A stretch of 20,653 nucleotides of DNA from the NCBI GenBank assembly GCA_024975835.1, contig GCA_024975835.1_4840.2; one strand, 5' to 3'. The notes under the pieces were generated by a model that saw only the letters and a list, made by a program, of their open reading frames with translations, ran no database searches and was not told where the DNA came from. Origin of the DNA: a phage. Positions 4,995 to 10,362 of this stretch are shown piece by piece. Numbering within the stretch: the stretch's first letter is position 1; every line of letters begins with the position of its first letter. The translations under genes were made by a program, and so were the position numbers.

Positions 4995-5273
4995 ATGAAT
5001 CGTACTGAATTTGTTGCCCACATTGCTTCGACCCAGAACATCACCAAAGGCGAAGCGGAGAAAGTAGTGGCATCCTTTATCGACGGTGTAAAAACTGCAG
5101 TTGCTGCAGGCGCATCTGTACAGCTGGTCGGCTTCGGTGCGTTCGAAGTGAAACACCAAGAAGCGCGTGAAGGTCGCAACCCTCTGAACGGCCAGACCAT
5201 TCAGATCGCGGCGAAAAACGTTGTGAAATTCAAAGTGGGCGAAGGTCTGAAGAACGCTGCCAACGGCAAGTAA
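4995..5273 (+). CDS. HU/IHF-family histone-like DNA-binding protein
   Basis: Protein is 92 aa, typical HU length. Contains the HU-family arm signature VQLVGFGAFEVKHQEAREGRNPLNGQTIQIAAKNVVKFKVG (compare bacterial HU GFGxF...R.GRNP...I.A...F..G). GGAG lies about 9 nt upstream. Confidence 0.85.
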   Translation: MNRTEFVAHIASTQNITKGEAEKVVASFIDGVKTAVAAGASVQLVGFGAFEVKHQEAREGRNPLNGQTIQIAAKNVVKFKVGEGLKNAANGK

Positions 5274-5322
5274 TTCTATCTGACGCGCGGCCAGGCTCTG
5301 CAATCAGGGCATGGCAAAAGAG

Positions 5323-5355
5323 AAAGCCGGAGTACAATGCTCCGGCTTTTTCGTT
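5323..5355 (+). terminator. rho-independent terminator
   Basis: AAAGCCGGAG-(7-nt loop)-CTCCGGCTTT followed by TTTTTCGTTCTT, directly downstream of the HU-like gene. Confidence 0.7.
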
Positions 5356-5401
5356 CTTGGGGATCGGGTAAACTATAGGCGAATCCCATAGGAGGAAGAA
5401 A

Positions 5402-7120
5402 GTGACAGCATTCAACCAATATACTAAGGCGCTTGACGGCGTCGGACCAGTCAGCATAGACCGCATCAAGTCTCTTGCCACTGAGTTCTTCCCGTATGAC
5501 ACCGCCAACCCCGGCCAGATGGAATGCATCGTTGAAGCCATCGATGCCCTTGTGAATAAGAAATTCAAACACGTGATCATCGAGGCTCCGACTGGTGTAG
5601 GTAAATCCCTCATCGGCACTACCATCCATAACGTGCTTCGCCATTTGGTTCTTGAGCACAACCCGTATGGTCAGTTCCGCACGTCTATCACGACGCCGAC
5701 CAAAGGTTTACAGGATCAGTATGCAGCAGAGAAAGCCGTGGCGATAGACATCCTGAAGGGCAAGAAGAATTACCGTTGCCACATCAGTCCCGACCTATAC
5801 TACAACGCCATTCAGTGCCGTATGGCATGCCGTGATGGCCAGTGTAGTAAGAATCGTTGCCCATATGTTCAGGCGCGTCGACAGTGGACCGACGTCTCCT
5901 CCCTGCGCTGCACCAACGCCGCCATGATGGTGGAGATGTGCACGACGATCTGTATGAAGCCGGAAAACCGTGCCGATATGCTGATCCTTGACGAGTGTCA
6001 TAAAATGCCCTCTACGCTCCTAGAGCATACTATCATGGAATACAACATAAAGGCTGTGGAAGGGCTGCTTACGATCCCAGAGGGGGTGCCTATCGTGGAG
6101 ACCATCAAGGATATCATCATCCGCACAGAGAACTATGAATTGGGCAACCTGTATTCCCTGTCTGGTGAGATGCATGCGATATTTGATGAACTGCACGGCA
6201 AGGTTGAAGCCCTGTTGGAAACTCTTGAGGAACTGGTAGAGGACGAGCGCCTGACTGAAGCCCAGGTGATGAAGCTGTCTGATATTATTGATACTCTTCA
6301 CAACCTCAGCGACTACTGTGGTATCATGGGGCAGACCAACGCCAGCACTTTCATCGTACAGGAGAAGGACAAGGGTATGATTCAGTTCAAGCCTGTCATC
6401 GCCTCTGATGTATCCCAGTTCGGCCTGTTCCGCAAGGGTGACTACCACGTCCACATGTCGGCTACCATTTGTGGGATTGACTCGTACGCCCGGTCACTGG
6501 GTATCCGCGAGGGTGAGTACCACAAGATACAGATCGGCAACCCTATCCCGATTGAGAACCGGAAAGTCAACTACATGCCCATCATGAAGATGACAGCGAA
6601 CATGGGTGACTATGAGATGAAGAAGCTGGCCGAATACGTTGATGAAATCATCGCATTCCACCCTGGGCAGTCTGGTATCATTCACACAGTAAGTTATGAC
6701 CGCGCCCTGGCTATACAGAAGTTCAGTAAGTACCGGAATATGATTCACGTTCCTCGTACTCGTAAGGCTCTGATGGACATCATGGAACACGCGTTCAGGA
6801 CGAAGACGCCTTGTGTCATCGCCAGTCCGGCCATGGAAGAGGGGTATGACTTCAAAGGCGATTACAGTCGATTTCAGATCTTGATCAAGGTGCCATACGA
6901 TTACCTTGGTGATCCTCTGGTGGCCCACGTCAACAGTGTGGACCCATCGGCGTACTTCAGGATGGCGGTACTGCGTATCGTTCAGATGTGTGGGCGTTCG
7001 GTCAGGGGCGTGAATGACTGGGCTGCGACGTACATCCTTGATTCTTCTTTTGAATCACTGATGATGCGCAACCCAGAGTTCTTCCCCGCTTGGTTCACTG
7101 ATGCCGTGTTTGAGGTTTAG
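5402..7120 (+). CDS. SF2 DExH-box helicase with Cys-rich insert between motifs I and II (DinG/XPD-like architecture)
   Basis: GTG start with AGGAGG 6 nt upstream. Walker A EAPTGVGKS, motif II LILDECH, motif III SAT (HMSATICG), motif VI QMCGRSVRG. Five Cys within about 30 residues (RCH...QCRMACRDGQCSKNRCP) lie between motifs I and II, where XPD/DinG helicases carry their Fe-S domain. Confidence 0.8.
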   Translation: MTAFNQYTKALDGVGPVSIDRIKSLATEFFPYDTANPGQMECIVEAIDALVNKKFKHVIIEAPTGVGKSLIGTTIHNVLRHLVLEHNPYGQFRTSITTPTKGLQDQYAAEKAVAIDILKGKKNYRCHISPDLYYNAIQCRMACRDGQCSKNRCPYVQARRQWTDVSSLRCTNAAMMVEMCTTICMKPENRADMLILDECHKMPSTLLEHTIMEYNIKAVEGLLTIPEGVPIVETIKDIIIRTENYELGNLYSLSGEMHAIFDELHGKVEALLETLEELVEDERLTEAQVMKLSDIIDTLHNLSDYCGIMGQTNASTFIVQEKDKGMIQFKPVIASDVSQFGLFRKGDYHVHMSATICGIDSYARSLGIREGEYHKIQIGNPIPIENRKVNYMPIMKMTANMGDYEMKKLAEYVDEIIAFHPGQSGIIHTVSYDRALAIQKFSKYRNMIHVPRTRKALMDIMEHAFRTKTPCVIASPAMEEGYDFKGDYSRFQILIKVPYDYLGDPLVAHVNSVDPSAYFRMAVLRIVQMCGRSVRGVNDWAATYILDSSFESLMMRNPEFFPAWFTDAVFEV

Positions 7121-7884
7121 TAACCCGCAACGAAGGACAGATGGCACTTGACATTCGGTTCCAACGACGTCACAGAAACCGTCATATTGTCCGTATCTTG
7201 GCTGAAGTCAATGGTGGCGAGAGGTTTGGTCTGAATATGGTTGTAAACACTGTAGATCAGATCCTCGCCACGATACCCTACCTTCCCGTCGGTGTCTTGC
7301 CAATGACCCAGTGTCTCATCGTAGACATGTACTCTGAACTCGATCATATGGAAGAGTGCCTTGGGGATGTCCTTGAGCACGCTGGTGCCAACCACGGGAA
7401 TCTCTATGCTGGAATCATTGGAGTTCCCTTCATAGACCGAAGCCCATGCAAAGGTAGGATCACCCCCAGCAACAGGGGTTCGCTTCCAGTATTGGAATTC
7501 TGGGTTGCCTGAAGCGTTCTTCTGAAGTAGAATGACCTCACCACCTTTGAAGTTCGAAGTATCGATGTCGCCTCGCTGAAGTTCATCTGCTGGAGATCCA
7601 ATAAATTTCCAGCCTTCGCGATCCAATAAAGACTTATAATAGTCGGTGAACACGTTGCTGTCTTCTGCATCGTTGATGGCATCTTTGAGACCTTGGCCTG
7701 TCACCATCTCGTTGAGCTTCAACCACATGTTCTTGACAGCAGACGCTGCTGCGACTTGTCCAGCAGTCCCACCTGCAGCATAATCATAGATGATATCTTC
7801 TGACTTGATAGCATCATAGATAGAGAGGAGCAATTGCTCAATCTGCGGGGCGGTGAGACTGAAACGATATGCGCGGGGTGCCAT
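7117..7884 (-). CDS. hypothetical late protein (about 255 aa), only convincing minus-strand gene in the window
   Basis: Start assigned to ATG 7884 (MAPRAYRF...) within track ORF 7117..8043, because GAGGAA lies about 8 nt upstream and a TATAAATA box lies about 36 nt upstream on the minus strand. 3' end converges on, and overlaps, the helicase stop. No catalytic motif recognised. Confidence 0.6.
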   Translation of the reverse strand: MAPRAYRFSLTAPQIEQLLLSIYDAIKSEDIIYDYAAGGTAGQVAAASAVKNMWLKLNEMVTGQGLKDAINDAEDSNVFTDYYKSLLDREGWKFIGSPADELQRGDIDTSNFKGGEVILLQKNASGNPEFQYWKRTPVAGGDPTFAWASVYEGNSNDSSIEIPVVGTSVLKDIPKALFHMIEFRVHVYDETLGHWQDTDGKVGYRGEDLIYSVYNHIQTKPLATIDFSQDTDNMTVSVTSLEPNVKCHLSFVAGY

Positions 7885-7919
7885 AGTTTCATTCCTCTTT
7901 CTATAAAACCAGTTTGGGA

Positions 7920-7927
7920 TATTTATA
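7920..7927 (-). promoter_or_regulatory. T4-type late promoter box TATAAATA on the minus strand
   Basis: Plus-strand TATTTATA at 7920-7927 is the reverse complement of TATAAATA, positioned upstream of the minus-strand ATG at 7884. A gp55-like late sigma factor is encoded in this same window. Confidence 0.5.
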
Positions 7928-7929
7928 TC

Positions 7930-8457
7930 ATGATAGAAATTTATTCTGACGGGGGTTCTAACCCGAAGACCAACCAGGCCGCAGGTTGGGCATTTGTCAT
8001 CAGGCCAATAACGGGTATGCAATGGAAGGTGTTCTTCGGCCATCTACCTCCCCCGTCCACTAACAATATCGCCGAGTTGTTGGGCGTGACCAACGCATTG
8101 AAGCTGCTGTGGGCATTCTCAGGAAAGGGTGAGCGCAGAATACCAAAGGCAACAATTTGGTCTGACAGCCAATATGCCATCAAGAGTGTCACCGAATGGC
8201 GAACGAAGTGGGAGTATCAGGGTTTCCCAGACAAGAACGTTGAACTCATCAAAGATCTGTTCAGAATCTATGATCTCGTTTGTTCAATTTGTGATGTTGA
8301 ACTAAAATGGGTTAAGGGTCATGCGGGGCACGAAGGCAACGAACTTGCCGATGACTGGGCCACAGCAGCCAAAAACGACAGCAACTTCCTGATTGAGAAT
8401 GACAAGATCTCAGTGAAGAAGGTTGTTGGATCTTTTGATGAATTTATCGGTATCTGA
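7930..8457 (+). CDS. rnhA: ribonuclease H, type 1 (RnhA-like)
   Basis: Start ATG 7930 (MIEIYSDGG...) within track ORF 7834..8457. Catalytic signatures IYSDGG, NNIAEL, SDSQY and WVKGHAGHEGNELADDWA correspond to the D-E-D-H-D active-site pattern of E. coli RNase HI. Confidence 0.85.
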   Translation: MIEIYSDGGSNPKTNQAAGWAFVIRPITGMQWKVFFGHLPPPSTNNIAELLGVTNALKLLWAFSGKGERRIPKATIWSDSQYAIKSVTEWRTKWEYQGFPDKNVELIKDLFRIYDLVCSICDVELKWVKGHAGHEGNELADDWATAAKNDSNFLIENDKISVKKVVGSFDEFIGI

Positions 8458-8468
8458 GGGCTTTCATA

Positions 8469-9260
8469 ATGGGAATGAACTTCGTGGACAGAGGGGAGAA
8501 TGTCGTCAAATATTTCACGGACGAAGACAACGAGCGTGTCATCAGTATCCTTCGTGATTGGATCCCTGCTCGTAAGAAGGCTCTGGCTGAAGGCACCAGG
8601 CTTCCAAAGATCCCCAACTATGTTGCTCTACAGGTCCAGCGCATCATCACCAAGATGAGTACCCGCTACAACTATCGCGACTATCCCTTCCGTGAAGACA
8701 TGGTCTCTGAAGCAATAGTCAACATCCTGCGCTACCTCCACACCTTTGACGTCGAACACATTGGAAAGAAAGGGAAGATCAACTTCTTCTCTTGGGTGAC
8801 CATGTGTGCTGATCGCTCATTTGCTCGTAAACTGAACATCGAAGAAGAGCACACGTACATTAAATTGCGCTCATTTGAAGAGGCGGGTGGGTTCGCAGGC
8901 CTGGCAGACGATCCCGACTTCCAACAAGAGATCTTTGTTGATGCTACAGGAATTGGCATGGACTTCCGTGAGCGTATCGGTAACTTTGAGAACAAAAAGG
9001 ACGCTCAAAGACAGAAGGAGCGAGAGAAGGTGGAGGCAGCTCGTCTCGCAGAATCGAATAAAAAGATTGCGAAAGGCATACTTCAATACATGGCGCAGGC
9101 TAAGAATACGGTAACAGCGCAGGCCGAAGACAATTCAGATCAGGACTTTGGCAAAACCCAATTCAATCTGGAAGATGATATCTGTGCGATGGAACCAGAT
9201 TGGGAAGCCCTCAAACAAAGATTAGAAGAACGGGAGAAAAAGAATAATGGCGATTGCTAA
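8469..9260 (+). CDS. gp55-like late-transcription sigma factor with extended charged C-terminal tail
   Basis: Pattern RYNYRDY...VNILRYLHTFD...NFFSWVTMCADRSFARKL parallels T4 gp55 as I recall it (RFNFSGY...LHNFD...YITQACFNAFVQRI). Protein is about 80 aa longer than T4 gp55, with a Lys/Glu-rich C-terminal region. Confidence 0.75.
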   Translation: MGMNFVDRGENVVKYFTDEDNERVISILRDWIPARKKALAEGTRLPKIPNYVALQVQRIITKMSTRYNYRDYPFREDMVSEAIVNILRYLHTFDVEHIGKKGKINFFSWVTMCADRSFARKLNIEEEHTYIKLRSFEEAGGFAGLADDPDFQQEIFVDATGIGMDFRERIGNFENKKDAQRQKEREKVEAARLAESNKKIAKGILQYMAQAKNTVTAQAEDNSDQDFGKTQFNLEDDICAMEPDWEALKQRLEEREKKNNGDC

Positions 9261-10362
9261 AATCGGCGATCTGCATATCGGGAGCCGTAATGGTTCCCGA
9301 TACGTTCGCGACTTCATCAAGAACTATCTCATCAATTATTTCATCCCTGAACTTGTCGACTCTGATATCAAAGAGGTCTGGCAGTTCGGTGATACGTTTG
9401 ATGTCCGCAAATTCATGTACGGGCGTGACAAGGACTGGTTGAAAGATGAGCTGACTCCGGCGCTGAAAGCTGCTGGGATCAAGTGGAATGGTATTGTTGG
9501 TAACCACGACATCACCCTGGAAGAGTCTAACCGCATCAACTGGCCATCCTACCTGAACGAACTCGACCCAGATGTGTACTGCTATTATAGCGAACCGACC
9601 GAAGTGATGATCGAGGGTGTCAAGACTCTGCTCCTACCGTGGATCAACAAGGAGAACTATGATGCGTCTATTAAGGCGATACAAGATACAGACGCCGAGT
9701 ACTGTTTTGCGCATCTGGAGCTGGCAGGGTTCAAAATGTACCAGTCCTCTACTTGTGATCACGGTCAGATCGACGTTGCGTTGCTTTCCAAGTTTACCAG
9801 GGTCGACACGGGACATTTCCATACCCGTTCGATGGAAGGTAACATTCAGTATCTTGGGACTCCGTATCACCTGAACTGGGAAGACTACAAAGATGGCACC
9901 AACCGTGGCTTCTATGTGGACGACATGCGCGGTGGTGAGGTCTTTATCCCGAACGCCGAGAATCAGACGTTGTTCCGCTATGTGGAATATGATTACACCA
10001 AGTTGTCCTCAGACGATGAGGGTAACTGGATCAACCCGGAATGGCTGAACACAGGCTTGGGTATTGAAGGGCAAATCGTTAAGGTTATTGTACAGAATCG
10101 CGACAATGCTAAGCATTATGAAAAGTTCTGTGATGCCATGAAGCGCTGTAAGTGCATTGACTACAACTTCATCGACCGGACTATTACCGTAGCGGCTGAG
10201 AAGGTTGAGGTCACCGAAGAGATGGTGGCAACCGACGCAGTGGAAGTCCTAAAGAAGGATATCCGCGCCGGGAACAACATCCAGCGCCCTGAAAACGTCT
10301 GCAAGCTGGCAGAGCACTTCTACAACGCTGCCCAACAACGTCTGAATACACTGGATGCATAA
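9247..10362 (+). CDS. gp47-like Mre11/SbcD-family recombination nuclease (calcineurin-like phosphoesterase)
   Basis: Phosphoesterase motifs GDLHIG, GDTFD, GNHD and GHFH, with N-terminal similarity to T4 gp47. Overlaps the gp55-like gene by 14 nt. Confidence 0.85.
   Translation: MAIAKIGDLHIGSRNGSRYVRDFIKNYLINYFIPELVDSDIKEVWQFGDTFDVRKFMYGRDKDWLKDELTPALKAAGIKWNGIVGNHDITLEESNRINWPSYLNELDPDVYCYYSEPTEVMIEGVKTLLLPWINKENYDASIKAIQDTDAEYCFAHLELAGFKMYQSSTCDHGQIDVALLSKFTRVDTGHFHTRSMEGNIQYLGTPYHLNWEDYKDGTNRGFYVDDMRGGEVFIPNAENQTLFRYVEYDYTKLSSDDEGNWINPEWLNTGLGIEGQIVKVIVQNRDNAKHYEKFCDAMKRCKCIDYNFIDRTITVAAEKVEVTEEMVATDAVEVLKKDIRAGNNIQRPENVCKLAEHFYNAAQQRLNTLDA

What the first reader, a model, noticed from the sequence alone, without database searches (positions are those of the whole stretch)
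7117..7932. Lone minus-strand late gene whose TATAAATA box shares sequence with the RNase H start
All other confident genes run left to right, but a 255-aa ORF runs right to left from 7884. Its promoter box TATAAATA (minus strand, 7920-7927) overlaps the plus-strand ATTTATATC-ATG start context of the RNase H gene at 7930, so one 12-bp stretch serves as a late promoter on one strand and a translation start context on the other. The gene also converges on the helicase gene with overlapping stops. The product has no recognisable motif.
Basis: seen in the sequence. Interest (0 to 1): 0.55.

Follow-up and report, generated by a model that had tools for sequence, protein, structure and literature searches.

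The report
Late virion gene beside RNase H
This is a real backwards-facing gene in a Vi1-like (Ackermannviridae) phage that makes a particle protein, probably switched on late by a T4-style promoter box; the arrangement was already annotated in a sister phage in 2012, so it is ordinary, although the protein now looks like the tail-fibre socket protein gp9 that this family was thought to lack.

Summary
The window is an Agtrevirus-like Ackermannviridae phage, 98.5% identical to Salmonella phage vB_CECAV_050. A 255-aa ORF (7117-7884, minus strand) is annotated in all relatives. Its start and GAGGA ribosome-binding site are conserved, and its stop overlaps the helicase stop by 4 nt. An exact TATAAATA (7920-7927, minus) lies 35 nt upstream and 2 nt from the RNase HI ATG at 7930.

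The interpretation as a gp55-type late promoter is well supported but not new. The GenBank record of Dickeya phage LIMEstone1 (2012) marks the same box as "putative late promoter". It marks the 92%-identical ortholog ORF093 as a "confirmed structural protein" (8 peptides, 41% coverage). The box keeps its position across genera: TATAAATA, TATAAGTA in Kuttervirus, CTAAATA in Vibrio phages. It always sits 0-2 nt from the RNase H start or overlaps it.

"No recognisable motif" is only partly right:
- Foldseek matches T4 gp9 (E 1e-8).
- Profile-profile comparison with gp9 gives E 5e-5.
- The N-terminal module is fused to tail-fibre proteins elsewhere.

These point to a gp9-like baseplate-periphery protein. 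Any functional coupling between late transcription and RNase H/gp55 expression is untested.

The parts
7117..7884 (-). 255-aa virion protein gene. Orthologs: LIMEstone1 ORF093, Vi01_105, AG3 orf00124. Family phrog_3833. Predicted gp9-like baseplate-periphery or fibre-connector protein.
   Evidence: ORF and translation. Annotated CDS in relatives. PHROG hit E 4e-160. The 92%-identical ortholog was detected in virions by ESI-MS/MS (PMC3296691). Fold and profile similarity to gp9.
7892..7899 (-). Shine-Dalgarno AAGAGGAA. The GAGG core lies 9 nt before the ATG at 7884.
   Evidence: Read from the sequence. A GAGGA core is conserved upstream of the same start in most genera.
7885..7914 (-). Predicted 30-nt 5' leader of the late mRNA. 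The +1 is inferred at about 7914 by T4 geometry, with the box at -13 to -6.
   Evidence: Inference from T4 late promoter geometry (PMC2988020). The leader has no unusual structure (z -0.46).
7920..7927 (-). TATAAATA, a T4-type (gp55-dependent) late promoter box.
   Evidence: Exact match, 2 in the window against 0.2 expected. The same bases are annotated 'putative late promoter' in HE600015. Position conserved across genera.
7916..7919 (+). GGGA, a weak Shine-Dalgarno-like element for RNase H. It lies opposite the first transcribed bases of the late mRNA. The spacer between it and the ATG is the complement of the late box.
   Evidence: Read from the sequence. The equivalent element is GGAG in Taipeivirus and GGGG in Serratia phage (my reading).
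7930..8457 (+). RNase HI gene (175 aa).
   Evidence: Pfam RNase_H E 3.8e-25 and phrog_531 E 3.6e-59. The N-terminus MIEIYSDGG carries what is probably the catalytic Asp, by comparison with other RNase HI.
5402..7120 (+). DNA helicase gene. It converges on the late gene with a 4-nt stop-codon overlap at 7117-7120.
   Evidence: phrog_2488 E 4e-259. Pfam Helicase_C_2, ResIII and DEAD. Overlap read.
8469..9260 (+). gp55-like late sigma factor gene, in the same plus-strand gene string as RNase H.
   Evidence: phrog_234 'late sigma transcription factor' E 3.4e-52. Annotated Gp55 in relatives.

Best explanation
The 255-aa ORF is a late-expressed virion gene embedded backwards in a plus-strand replication and recombination gene string (helicase, RNase HI, gp55, gp47, gp46).

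How it is expressed (inferred from the T4 system): RNA polymerase carrying the phage's own gp55, helped by gp33 and the DNA-loaded clamp gp45, recognises the 8-bp TATAAATA at 7920-7927. It starts near 7914 and makes a 30-nt leader with a good ribosome-binding site. A promoter of this class needs no -35 element, so it fits in the 45-bp divergent spacer. As a result it lies back-to-back with the RNase H translation-initiation region.

How the neighbours are transcribed (inferred): there is no conserved promoter and no terminator between the helicase stop and the RNase H start. RNase H and gp55 are therefore probably transcribed by read-through from the helicase gene, antisense to the late gene. 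The two strands would then be used at different times, as happens at several T4 loci.

What the product is: shown to be a particle component in two relatives. It is inferred, with moderate support, to be a trimeric gp9-like protein of the baseplate periphery. It would have an N-terminal helical or fibre-repeat module that anchors it and a C-terminal beta-sandwich socket domain.
For: Gene:
- Conserved 255-aa length, start and ribosome-binding site in Aglimvirinae, Kuttervirus, Taipeivirus, Miltonvirus and Vibrio Ackermannviridae.
- Synteny helicase / this gene / RNase H / gp55 / gp47 is conserved.

Late and virion status:
- LIMEstone1 ORF093, 92% identical: 28.3 kDa, 40.8% coverage, 8 peptides in purified virions.
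- Vi01_105 is labelled 'conserved phage associated protein'.

Promoter:
- Exact T4 consensus, enriched in the window and in LIMEstone1 (7 observed against 1.5 expected).
- In LIMEstone1, 5 of 7 TATAAATA and 24 of 54 TAAATA sites are followed at 21-42 nt by a ribosome-binding site, a start codon and an ORF. Permuted control motifs give 13-15%. This gene's spacing is 35 nt.
- The box is retained at the same place while flanking spacer sequence diverges. It becomes CTAAATA, the family's main late motif, in Vibrio phages.
- gp55 is encoded in the window. gp33 and gp45 are annotated in LIMEstone1.
- T4 late promoters are an 8-bp -10 element with no -35. C at -12 occurs in relatives, and both strands are transcribed at some loci (PMC2988020).

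Product fold:
- Foldseek against PDB: top hit T4 gp9 1qex, E 1.1e-8.
- hhalign, family profile against gp9 profile: E 4.9e-5, probability 68%, residues 97-254 aligned to gp9 76-280.
- BFVD hits include proteins annotated as gp9 or baseplate wedge subunits.
- The N-terminal 1-160 module is fused to tail-fibre or tail proteins in metagenomic relatives. Residues 60-90 are a tail-fibre repeat unit.
Against: - No transcript data exist for any Ackermannviridae phage in the searched literature. Late timing and the +1 are inferred.
- All nine Kuttervirus loci examined, from the largest group of relatives, have TATAAGTA, a one-base departure. Other Vi01 late genes use CTAAATA or TTAAATA. Either the box tolerates the change or that genus uses something else.
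- The segment just downstream of the box (TCCCAAAC) is not AT-rich as it is in T4.
- Virion mass spectrometry also picks up a few non-structural proteins, such as ligase and gp44 at one peptide each. This does not apply at 8 peptides.
- gp9 assignment: no Pfam T4_gp9_10 hit for any of 33 family members.
- No sequence hit to PDB, even with a profile.
- The hhalign probability is only 68%.
- Foldseek TM-scores are low (0.31-0.36).
- The gene is not in a baseplate cluster.
Confidence: 0.72

Rival explanations
1. The TATAAATA is not a working promoter. It would be an AT-rich spacer selected for RNase H translation initiation, or present by chance. The virion gene would be expressed from another, unrecognised signal.
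For: Kuttervirus has TATAAGTA at this site, yet its ortholog is still particle-associated. The CBA120 paper states that the late promoter sequence of the ViI family had not been identified. 2 of 7 exact boxes in LIMEstone1 do not precede genes.
Against: The box stays at a fixed distance from the virion gene start and switches to the family's main late motif, CTAAATA, in Vibrio phages, where the rest of the spacer is unrelated. Exact boxes strongly associate with gene starts. There is no other candidate signal in the 45-bp spacer, and everything further upstream is RNase H coding sequence.
Confidence: 0.13
2. The product is a virion protein but not a gp9 counterpart. It could be a short fibre or the 'prong', a head decoration protein, or a particle-associated accessory protein. 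The gp9 resemblance would reflect a common beta-sandwich and fibre-repeat vocabulary.
Against: The top hit of two independent structure-search methods is gp9. A sequence-profile comparison is co-linear over about 155 residues at E 5e-5. The size is similar (255 against 288 aa), and so is the helix-then-two-beta-regions order.
Confidence: 0.4
3. The true gene is the 308-aa ORF starting at ATG 8043, as annotated in Shigella phage ChubbyThor. The box would then lie inside coding sequence and the promoter-gene relationship would disappear.
For: The frame is open for 53 codons upstream, with an ATG, in this window. One database entry uses this start (P0002).
Against: The extension is open only in Aglimvirinae. 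Kuttervirus closes after 12 codons, Miltonvirus after 6, and one unassigned lineage (L032) after 3. Nearly all homologs are 254-257 aa and align from the 7884 methionine. A conserved ribosome-binding site precedes 7884. The extension would run antisense through the first 38 codons of RNase H.
Confidence: 0.03

Closest known systems
LIMEstone1 ORF093 with its annotated 'putative late promoter' (GenBank HE600015; Adriaenssens et al. 2012, PMC3296691). Also Vi01_105 and AG3 orf00124.
   Same: Orthologous locus. The protein is 92% identical, and the 90 bp upstream of the start are identical, including the box. The flanks are the same (helicase, RNase HI, gp55), as is the 4-nt stop overlap.
   Different: Nothing material. 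The earlier annotation marks TAAATA as a -10 signal and calls the product an 'unknown structural protein'. It does not comment on the RNase H start or on any fold.
T4 late promoters (gp55, gp33, gp45-dependent; consensus TATAAATA at -13 to -6)
   Same: Exact 8-bp consensus with no room or need for a -35. The phage encodes gp55 here, and gp33 and gp45 elsewhere in the family. The box drives a virion gene. Opposite-strand use at different times is known in T4 (PMC2988020).
   Different: The family mostly uses CTAAATA, as reported for Aeromonas phage Aeh1. The sequence downstream of the box is not AT-rich. Nothing has been tested biochemically in this family.
T4 gp9, the baseplate wedge tail-fibre connector (PDB 1QEX/1S2E; Pfam PF07880 + PF23618)
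   Same: Similar size. N-terminal helical part followed by beta domains. The C-terminal sandwich is the best structural match. Profile-profile E is 4.9e-5. It is a virion protein.
   Different: No Pfam-level sequence match. Part of the gp9 middle domain appears to be deleted in the alignment. The gene is isolated among replication genes rather than in the 6-7-8-9-10-11-12 cluster. The family has tailspikes rather than long tail fibres. Reviews state that the family lacks gp9-gp11 (PMC11721090).
Other isolated opposite-strand late islands in the same genomes (LIMEstone1 gp54 ORF050, gp26 ORF059, gp5-gp25)
   Same: Single or few virion genes on the strand opposite to the surrounding early genes. 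Each has a TAAATA-type box in a short divergent spacer.
   Different: Those encode recognised T4 baseplate proteins. This one had no assigned role.

Membership tests
T4-type gp55-dependent late promoter | 8-bp TATAAATA element, single deviations tolerated, about one helical turn upstream of the start site | tested here: met
   Exact TATAAATA at 7920-7927 on the minus strand. The T4 definition is taken from PMC2988020.
T4-type gp55-dependent late promoter | The phage encodes the gp55 sigma factor, the co-activator gp33 and the sliding clamp gp45 | tested here: met
   gp55 at 8469-9260, phrog_234 E 3.4e-52. gp33 (ORF053) and gp45 (ORF120) are annotated in LIMEstone1 and reported for AG3, CBA120 and ViI. 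They lie outside this window.
T4-type gp55-dependent late promoter | Placed just upstream of a late (virion or lysis) gene, with the motif enriched at such positions genome-wide | tested here: met
   The box ends 35 nt before the ATG of a virion protein gene. In LIMEstone1, 5 of 7 exact boxes and 44% of TAAATA sites precede gene starts at 21-42 nt, against 13-15% for controls.
T4-type gp55-dependent late promoter | AT-rich segment immediately downstream of the box | tested here: not met
   The downstream sequence is TCCCAAAC, 4 of 8 A/T. Other boxes annotated in the family are similar. This is a T4 tendency rather than a strict requirement.
T4-type gp55-dependent late promoter | Replication-dependent primary transcript 5' end downstream of the box; activity requires gp55 | not testable with these tools
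   No Ackermannviridae transcriptome or 5'-end data were found in the library.
T4 gp9 baseplate wedge tail-fibre connector | Sequence match to Pfam T4_gp9_10_N (PF07880) and T4_gp9_10_C (PF23618) | tested here: not met
   No hit for the window protein or any of 33 family members at E up to 1. T4 gp9 itself scores 1e-73 and 1e-42.
T4 gp9 baseplate wedge tail-fibre connector | Remote homology detectable by profile-profile comparison | tested here: inconclusive
   hhalign A2 against A3: probability 67.7%, E 4.9e-5, 153 columns, co-linear. With a single gp9 sequence as target: E 0.075.
T4 gp9 baseplate wedge tail-fibre connector | gp9 fold: N-terminal coiled coil, middle beta-sandwich, C-terminal beta-sandwich | tested here: inconclusive
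T4 gp9 baseplate wedge tail-fibre connector | Homotrimer located on the baseplate periphery that holds a fibre | not testable with these tools
   Only virion presence is known. No Ackermannviridae baseplate structure was found.
T4 gp9 baseplate wedge tail-fibre connector | Gene located in the baseplate wedge cluster | tested here: not met
   Here the gene lies between the helicase and RNase H genes. In T4, gene 9 lies between genes 8 and 10.
RNase HI (neighbouring gene) | RNase_H domain including the N-terminal catalytic Asp | tested here: met
   Pfam PF00075 E 3.8e-25 over residues 3-147. The N-terminus is MIEIYSDGG; its Asp is probably the catalytic one, by comparison with other RNase HI.

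The most novel reading that the evidence does not exclude
The geometry could form a feedback circuit on the late sigma factor.

No conserved promoter or terminator was found between the helicase stop and the RNase H start. The RNase H-gp55-gp47-gp46 string may therefore depend on read-through that runs antisense across the late gene and through the late promoter itself.

Once gp55 accumulates, polymerase bound at or firing from the box would meet that read-through head-on. It would also produce a 0.8-kb complementary RNA. Both effects would throttle further synthesis of gp55 and RNase H.

A second, better supported but less radical reading is that the product is the missing gp9-type socket to which the TSP4 anchor domain attaches. 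I put that at a probability of about 0.4.
Probability: 0.1. Interest if true: 0.55.

Novelty: already known. Interest (0 to 1): 0.22.

Why it matters
As a regulatory observation it adds little. The same promoter box and the same virion gene were annotated in LIMEstone1 in 2012, and T4 biology already explains how an 8-bp late promoter can sit against a divergent early gene.

Two points have some practical value:
- Late promoter motif: the CBA120 paper said the family's late promoter had not been identified. The data here show a CTAAATA / TATAAATA class with a 21-42 nt spacing to start codons. That could be used to annotate late genes across several hundred Ackermannviridae genomes.
- Baseplate: reviews state that these phages lack the gp9-gp11 baseplate periphery, and the baseplate partner of the TSP4 anchor domain is not known. 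A conserved, abundant, gp9-like virion protein encoded away from the tail cluster is a concrete candidate for that partner. This matters for engineering host range in phages used for biocontrol.

Tried and rejected
- Pfam, PDB sequence and PDB profile searches of the product returned nothing usable.
- Internal plus-strand promoter for RNase H: two sigma-70-like matches inside the gene (7505-7533 and 7756-7784) occur at chance frequency and their -10 hexamers are not conserved in other genera. Rejected.
- Synonymous-site conservation along the gene, as a sign of a hidden overlapping element: raised at codons 1-20 and 66-95. I attribute the latter stretch to its richness in two-codon amino acids (D, N, F, Y, K) and to the weighting of close relatives. 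Not pursued.
- Terminator between the convergent genes: none found. The nearest minus-strand terminator-like hairpin is at 5349-5323.
- Structure in the late mRNA leader: not different from shuffled sequences.
- Rfam: no family in the window.
- Literature search for Ackermannviridae transcriptomes or a baseplate cryo-EM structure: none found.
- The 308-aa alternative start: rejected on conservation.
Full report
**What the window is.** Megablast of 5400-9300 finds 154 phage records that cover at least 80% of the query. The best is Salmonella phage vB_CECAV_050 (Ackermannviridae, Aglimvirinae, Agtrevirus) at 98.5% identity. Next come Escherichia phage A221 and others, then Shigella phage AG3 at 94.7%. 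In these records the stretch reads: DNA helicase (plus), a 255-aa CDS (minus), RNase HI, the gp55-like late sigma factor, gp47/SbcD and gp46/SbcC (all plus). PHROG and Pfam scans of the window's own ORFs agree.

**Checking the observation.**
- The minus-strand ORF runs 7117-8043. The ATG at 7884 gives 255 aa and is preceded by AAGAGGAA.
- TATAAATA is on the minus strand at 7920-7927. It occurs twice in the window against 0.20 expected.
- The RNase H ATG is at 7930. The product begins MIEIYSDGG and matches Pfam RNase_H from residue 3. The box is therefore positions -10 to -3 of the RNase H start.
- The helicase stop (TAG, 7118-7120) and the minus-gene stop (TAA, 7117-7119) overlap.

The one correction is that the box abuts the RNase H start codon rather than overlapping it in this phage.

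**Is the 255-aa start right?** The would-refute clause names a better alternative start.
- The only candidate is the ATG at 8043 (308 aa), used in the ChubbyThor annotation.
- Across 25 loci the upstream frame is open for 53 or more codons only in Aglimvirinae. It closes after 12 codons in Kuttervirus, after 6 in Miltonvirus and after 3 in one unassigned lineage (L032), without a start codon.
- Homologs are almost all 254-257 aa and align from the 7884 methionine.
- A GAGGA core precedes that start in most genera.

The 7884 start stands.

**Is the gene late?** No transcript data for this family were found, so timing is inferred from the product.
- The LIMEstone1 ortholog ORF093 is 92% identical. 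It was recovered from purified virions by ESI-MS/MS with 8 unique peptides and 40.8% coverage. That is comparable to the portal and neck proteins in the same table (PMC3296691).
- The Vi01 ortholog Vi01_105 carries the label 'conserved phage associated protein'. In that record the same label is carried by other ORFs that LIMEstone1 confirms as virion proteins. I could not read the Vi01 proteomics paper itself.

**Is the box a promoter?**
- GenBank HE600015 already annotates bases 68385-68390 (the TAAATA of this same box, in an identical 90-bp upstream sequence) as 'minus_10_signal, putative late promoter'. It annotates ORF093 as 'confirmed structural protein'. The core of the finding has therefore been public since 2012.
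- Independent test in 150 kb of LIMEstone1: there are 7 exact TATAAATA against 1.5 expected. Five of them lie 24-35 nt before a ribosome-binding site, a start codon and an ORF. Four of those five lead into mass-spectrometry-confirmed virion genes (gp26, ORF080, ORF093, ORF168/169).
- Of 54 TAAATA hexamers, 24 (44%) are so placed, against 13-15% for permuted control motifs. Spacing from box to ATG is 21-42 nt, and this gene has 35.
- Most promoters annotated in that genome before the capsid, sheath, tube, gp6 and tailspike genes read CTAAATA. TATAAATA is the minority form of the family motif. The T4 late-transcription review records a C at -12 for Aeromonas phage Aeh1. [quoted passage not shown]

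**Conservation of the junction.** Oriented with the virion gene forward, the spacer reads as follows:

| Lineage | Sequence at the junction |
|---|---|
| Aglimvirinae | CAT-ga-TATAAATA |
| Kuttervirus (all nine loci) | CAT-g-TATAAGTA |
| Taipeivirus (RNase H starts with GTG) | CAC-ga-TATAAATA |
| Miltonvirus | CAT-g-TATAAATA |
| Two 62-64%-identical lineages | caTATAAATA, with the box overlapping the RNase H start codon |
| Vibrio phage BX-1 | CAT-TCTAAATA |
| Vibrio phage K444 | CAT-ACTAAATA |

- The protein is only 27-34% identical in the Vibrio phages, and the rest of the spacer is unrelated. Even so, a late-type box sits 0-2 nt from the RNase H start and 29-39 nt from the virion gene start.
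- That is a good phylogenetic footprint.
- The Kuttervirus A-to-G change is the main blemish. Other Vi01 late genes in the 45 kb examined use CTAAATA or TTAAATA.
- Vibrio phage Kuja has the gene in a different context with no obvious box.

**How the two strands probably interact.**
- Between the helicase stop and the RNase H start the plus strand has no terminator-like site. Sigma-70-like matches occur at chance frequency (6 found against 5.2 expected over 5000-9500).
- The two matches inside the gene are not conserved in other genera.
- The simplest reading, which is an inference, is that RNase H, gp55, gp47 and gp46 are reached by read-through from the helicase gene. That read-through would be antisense to the late gene. 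The late transcript starting near 7914 would run head-on into it.
- This is the ordinary T4 situation. Whether it has regulatory consequences for RNase H or gp55 is untested, and I give it a low probability.
- The 'shared 12 bp' is best seen as a consequence of packing. An 8-bp promoter is all that fits in a 45-bp divergent spacer that must also hold two ribosome-binding sites.
- The weak RNase H Shine-Dalgarno-like GGGA (7916-7919) lies opposite the first transcribed bases of the late RNA. The box is the A/T-rich spacer before the RNase H ATG.
- The late leader shows no special structure, and Rfam finds nothing in the window.
- The pattern of a lone opposite-strand late gene recurs in the same genomes. 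In LIMEstone1, gp54, gp26 and gp5-gp25 are similar islands, each with a TAAATA-type box.

**What the product is.**
- By sequence it is phrog_3833, function unknown. There is no Pfam or PDB sequence match, even with a profile.
- An AlphaFold model from 26 homologs is confident for residues 160-255, a beta-sandwich. A second model from 30 homologs has mean pLDDT 77.8. It shows helices at 12-21, 47-61, 63-72 and 81-90, then beta strands from 117 to 254.
- Foldseek against the PDB ranks T4 gp9 first (1qex_A, E 1.1e-8), then a baseplate chain of Klebsiella phage KP1, then tailspike and tail-fibre chains; I take the matched parts to be their N-terminal anchor domains.
- BFVD returns the Vibrio orthologs, then Aeromonas phage 65 'gp9plus10', a phiAS4 baseplate wedge subunit and nt-1 gp9.
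- A profile of the family including the Vibrio members was compared with a profile of 28 gp9 sequences. It gives E 4.9e-5 and probability 68%, co-linear over residues 97-254 against gp9 76-280. A shared FH..E and QSVDG(K/R) pattern is visible in the single-sequence alignment.
- A profile search of 1.84 billion representatives finds about 60 full-length relatives of about 250 aa. It also finds proteins in which the N-terminal 150-230 residues are fused to longer C-terminal parts that match PHROG 'tail fiber' or 'tail protein' families (P0223, P0216).
- The same search finds many tail-fibre proteins in which residues 60-90 (…DSNVFTD..K.KL…) recur as a tandem repeat.
- Together these place the protein among tail and baseplate-periphery proteins and make a gp9-like connector the best single guess.
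- By analogy, and this is inference only, the C-terminal sandwich here could be the socket for the TSP4 anchor domain. The baseplate partner of that domain is not identified in the CBA120 work (PMC8825819).
- A 2024 review states that the family lacks gp9-gp11 (PMC11721090). This assignment would therefore be a modest correction if confirmed.
- Membership in the gp9 family is not established. The Pfam test fails, the profile test is borderline and the location is unknown.

**Verdict.** It is already in the public annotation of a sister phage and follows known T4 rules. The claimed functional interplay with RNase H has no evidence for or against it. The added value from this second look is the family-wide motif picture (CTAAATA major, TATAAATA minor) and a gp9-like identity for a protein previously called unknown. 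Interest is low for the finding as stated and moderate-low for the by-product.

Noticed in passing
window 18308-18315 (+) and 18722-18728 (+): The second exact TATAAATA lies 25 nt before the 106-aa ORF 18341-18661 (phrog_4048, weak TOBE-domain hit). A CTAAATA lies 31 nt before the DUF5856 ORF 18760-19113. These look like late promoters for a plus-strand gene cluster; Vi01, LIMEstone1 and vB_CECAV_050 annotate virion or hypothetical proteins in this stretch. The window therefore holds late genes on both strands.
   Followed up: partly
window 15324-18266 (+): A 980-aa ORF with no Pfam domain. It matches phrog_3867 (unknown function), and residues 905-962 match an 'internal head protein' PHROG. 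A large ORF in the corresponding stretch differs in length between relatives (1024 aa in vB_CECAV_050; about 800 aa for Vi01_094c, 'phage associated protein'); orthology was inferred from position only.
   Followed up: partly
LIMEstone1 genome (L010-L012), Vi01 (L036): The dominant late-promoter-like motif of Ackermannviridae is CTAAATA, 21-42 nt before start codons, not T4's TATAAATA. The 2011 CBA120 paper said the family's late promoter was unidentified.
   Followed up: partly
window 5323-5349: A 10-bp GC-rich hairpin followed by a T-run on the minus strand, between the DNA-binding protein gene and the helicase gene. It is the first terminator-like site a late minus-strand transcript would meet, about 1.8 kb beyond the gene's stop, after crossing the whole helicase gene in antisense.
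   Followed up: no
window protein residues 60-90 (nt about 7615-7705); P0208, P0211, P0218, P0222: The segment ...AINxAxDSNVFTDxxKxxLD... is a repeat unit found 4-9 times in long tail-fibre proteins. One of these has His-x-His motifs and another a pectate-lyase beta-helix.
   Followed up: partly
database annotations of relatives: Start-codon inconsistencies in public records. The virion protein is annotated as 308 aa in ChubbyThor and 279 aa in K5lambda5. RNase H is annotated from an internal start in phage A221 (146 aa, which would lose the N-terminal IYSDGG Asp that is probably catalytic). In Vibrio phage K444 it is annotated from an upstream start that overlaps the virion gene by 137 nt.
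   Followed up: partly
Salmonella phage Marshall (H9/H10): In Marshall the homologous 3.9-kb stretch is about 725 bp longer and includes an annotated GIY-YIG homing endonuclease. The virion-gene/RNase H spacer itself is unchanged (L013).
   Followed up: no
window 9247-9260: The gp55 gene (8469-9260) and the gp47/SbcD gene (9247-10362) overlap by 14 nt. Relatives annotate different gp55 and gp47 starts.
   Followed up: no
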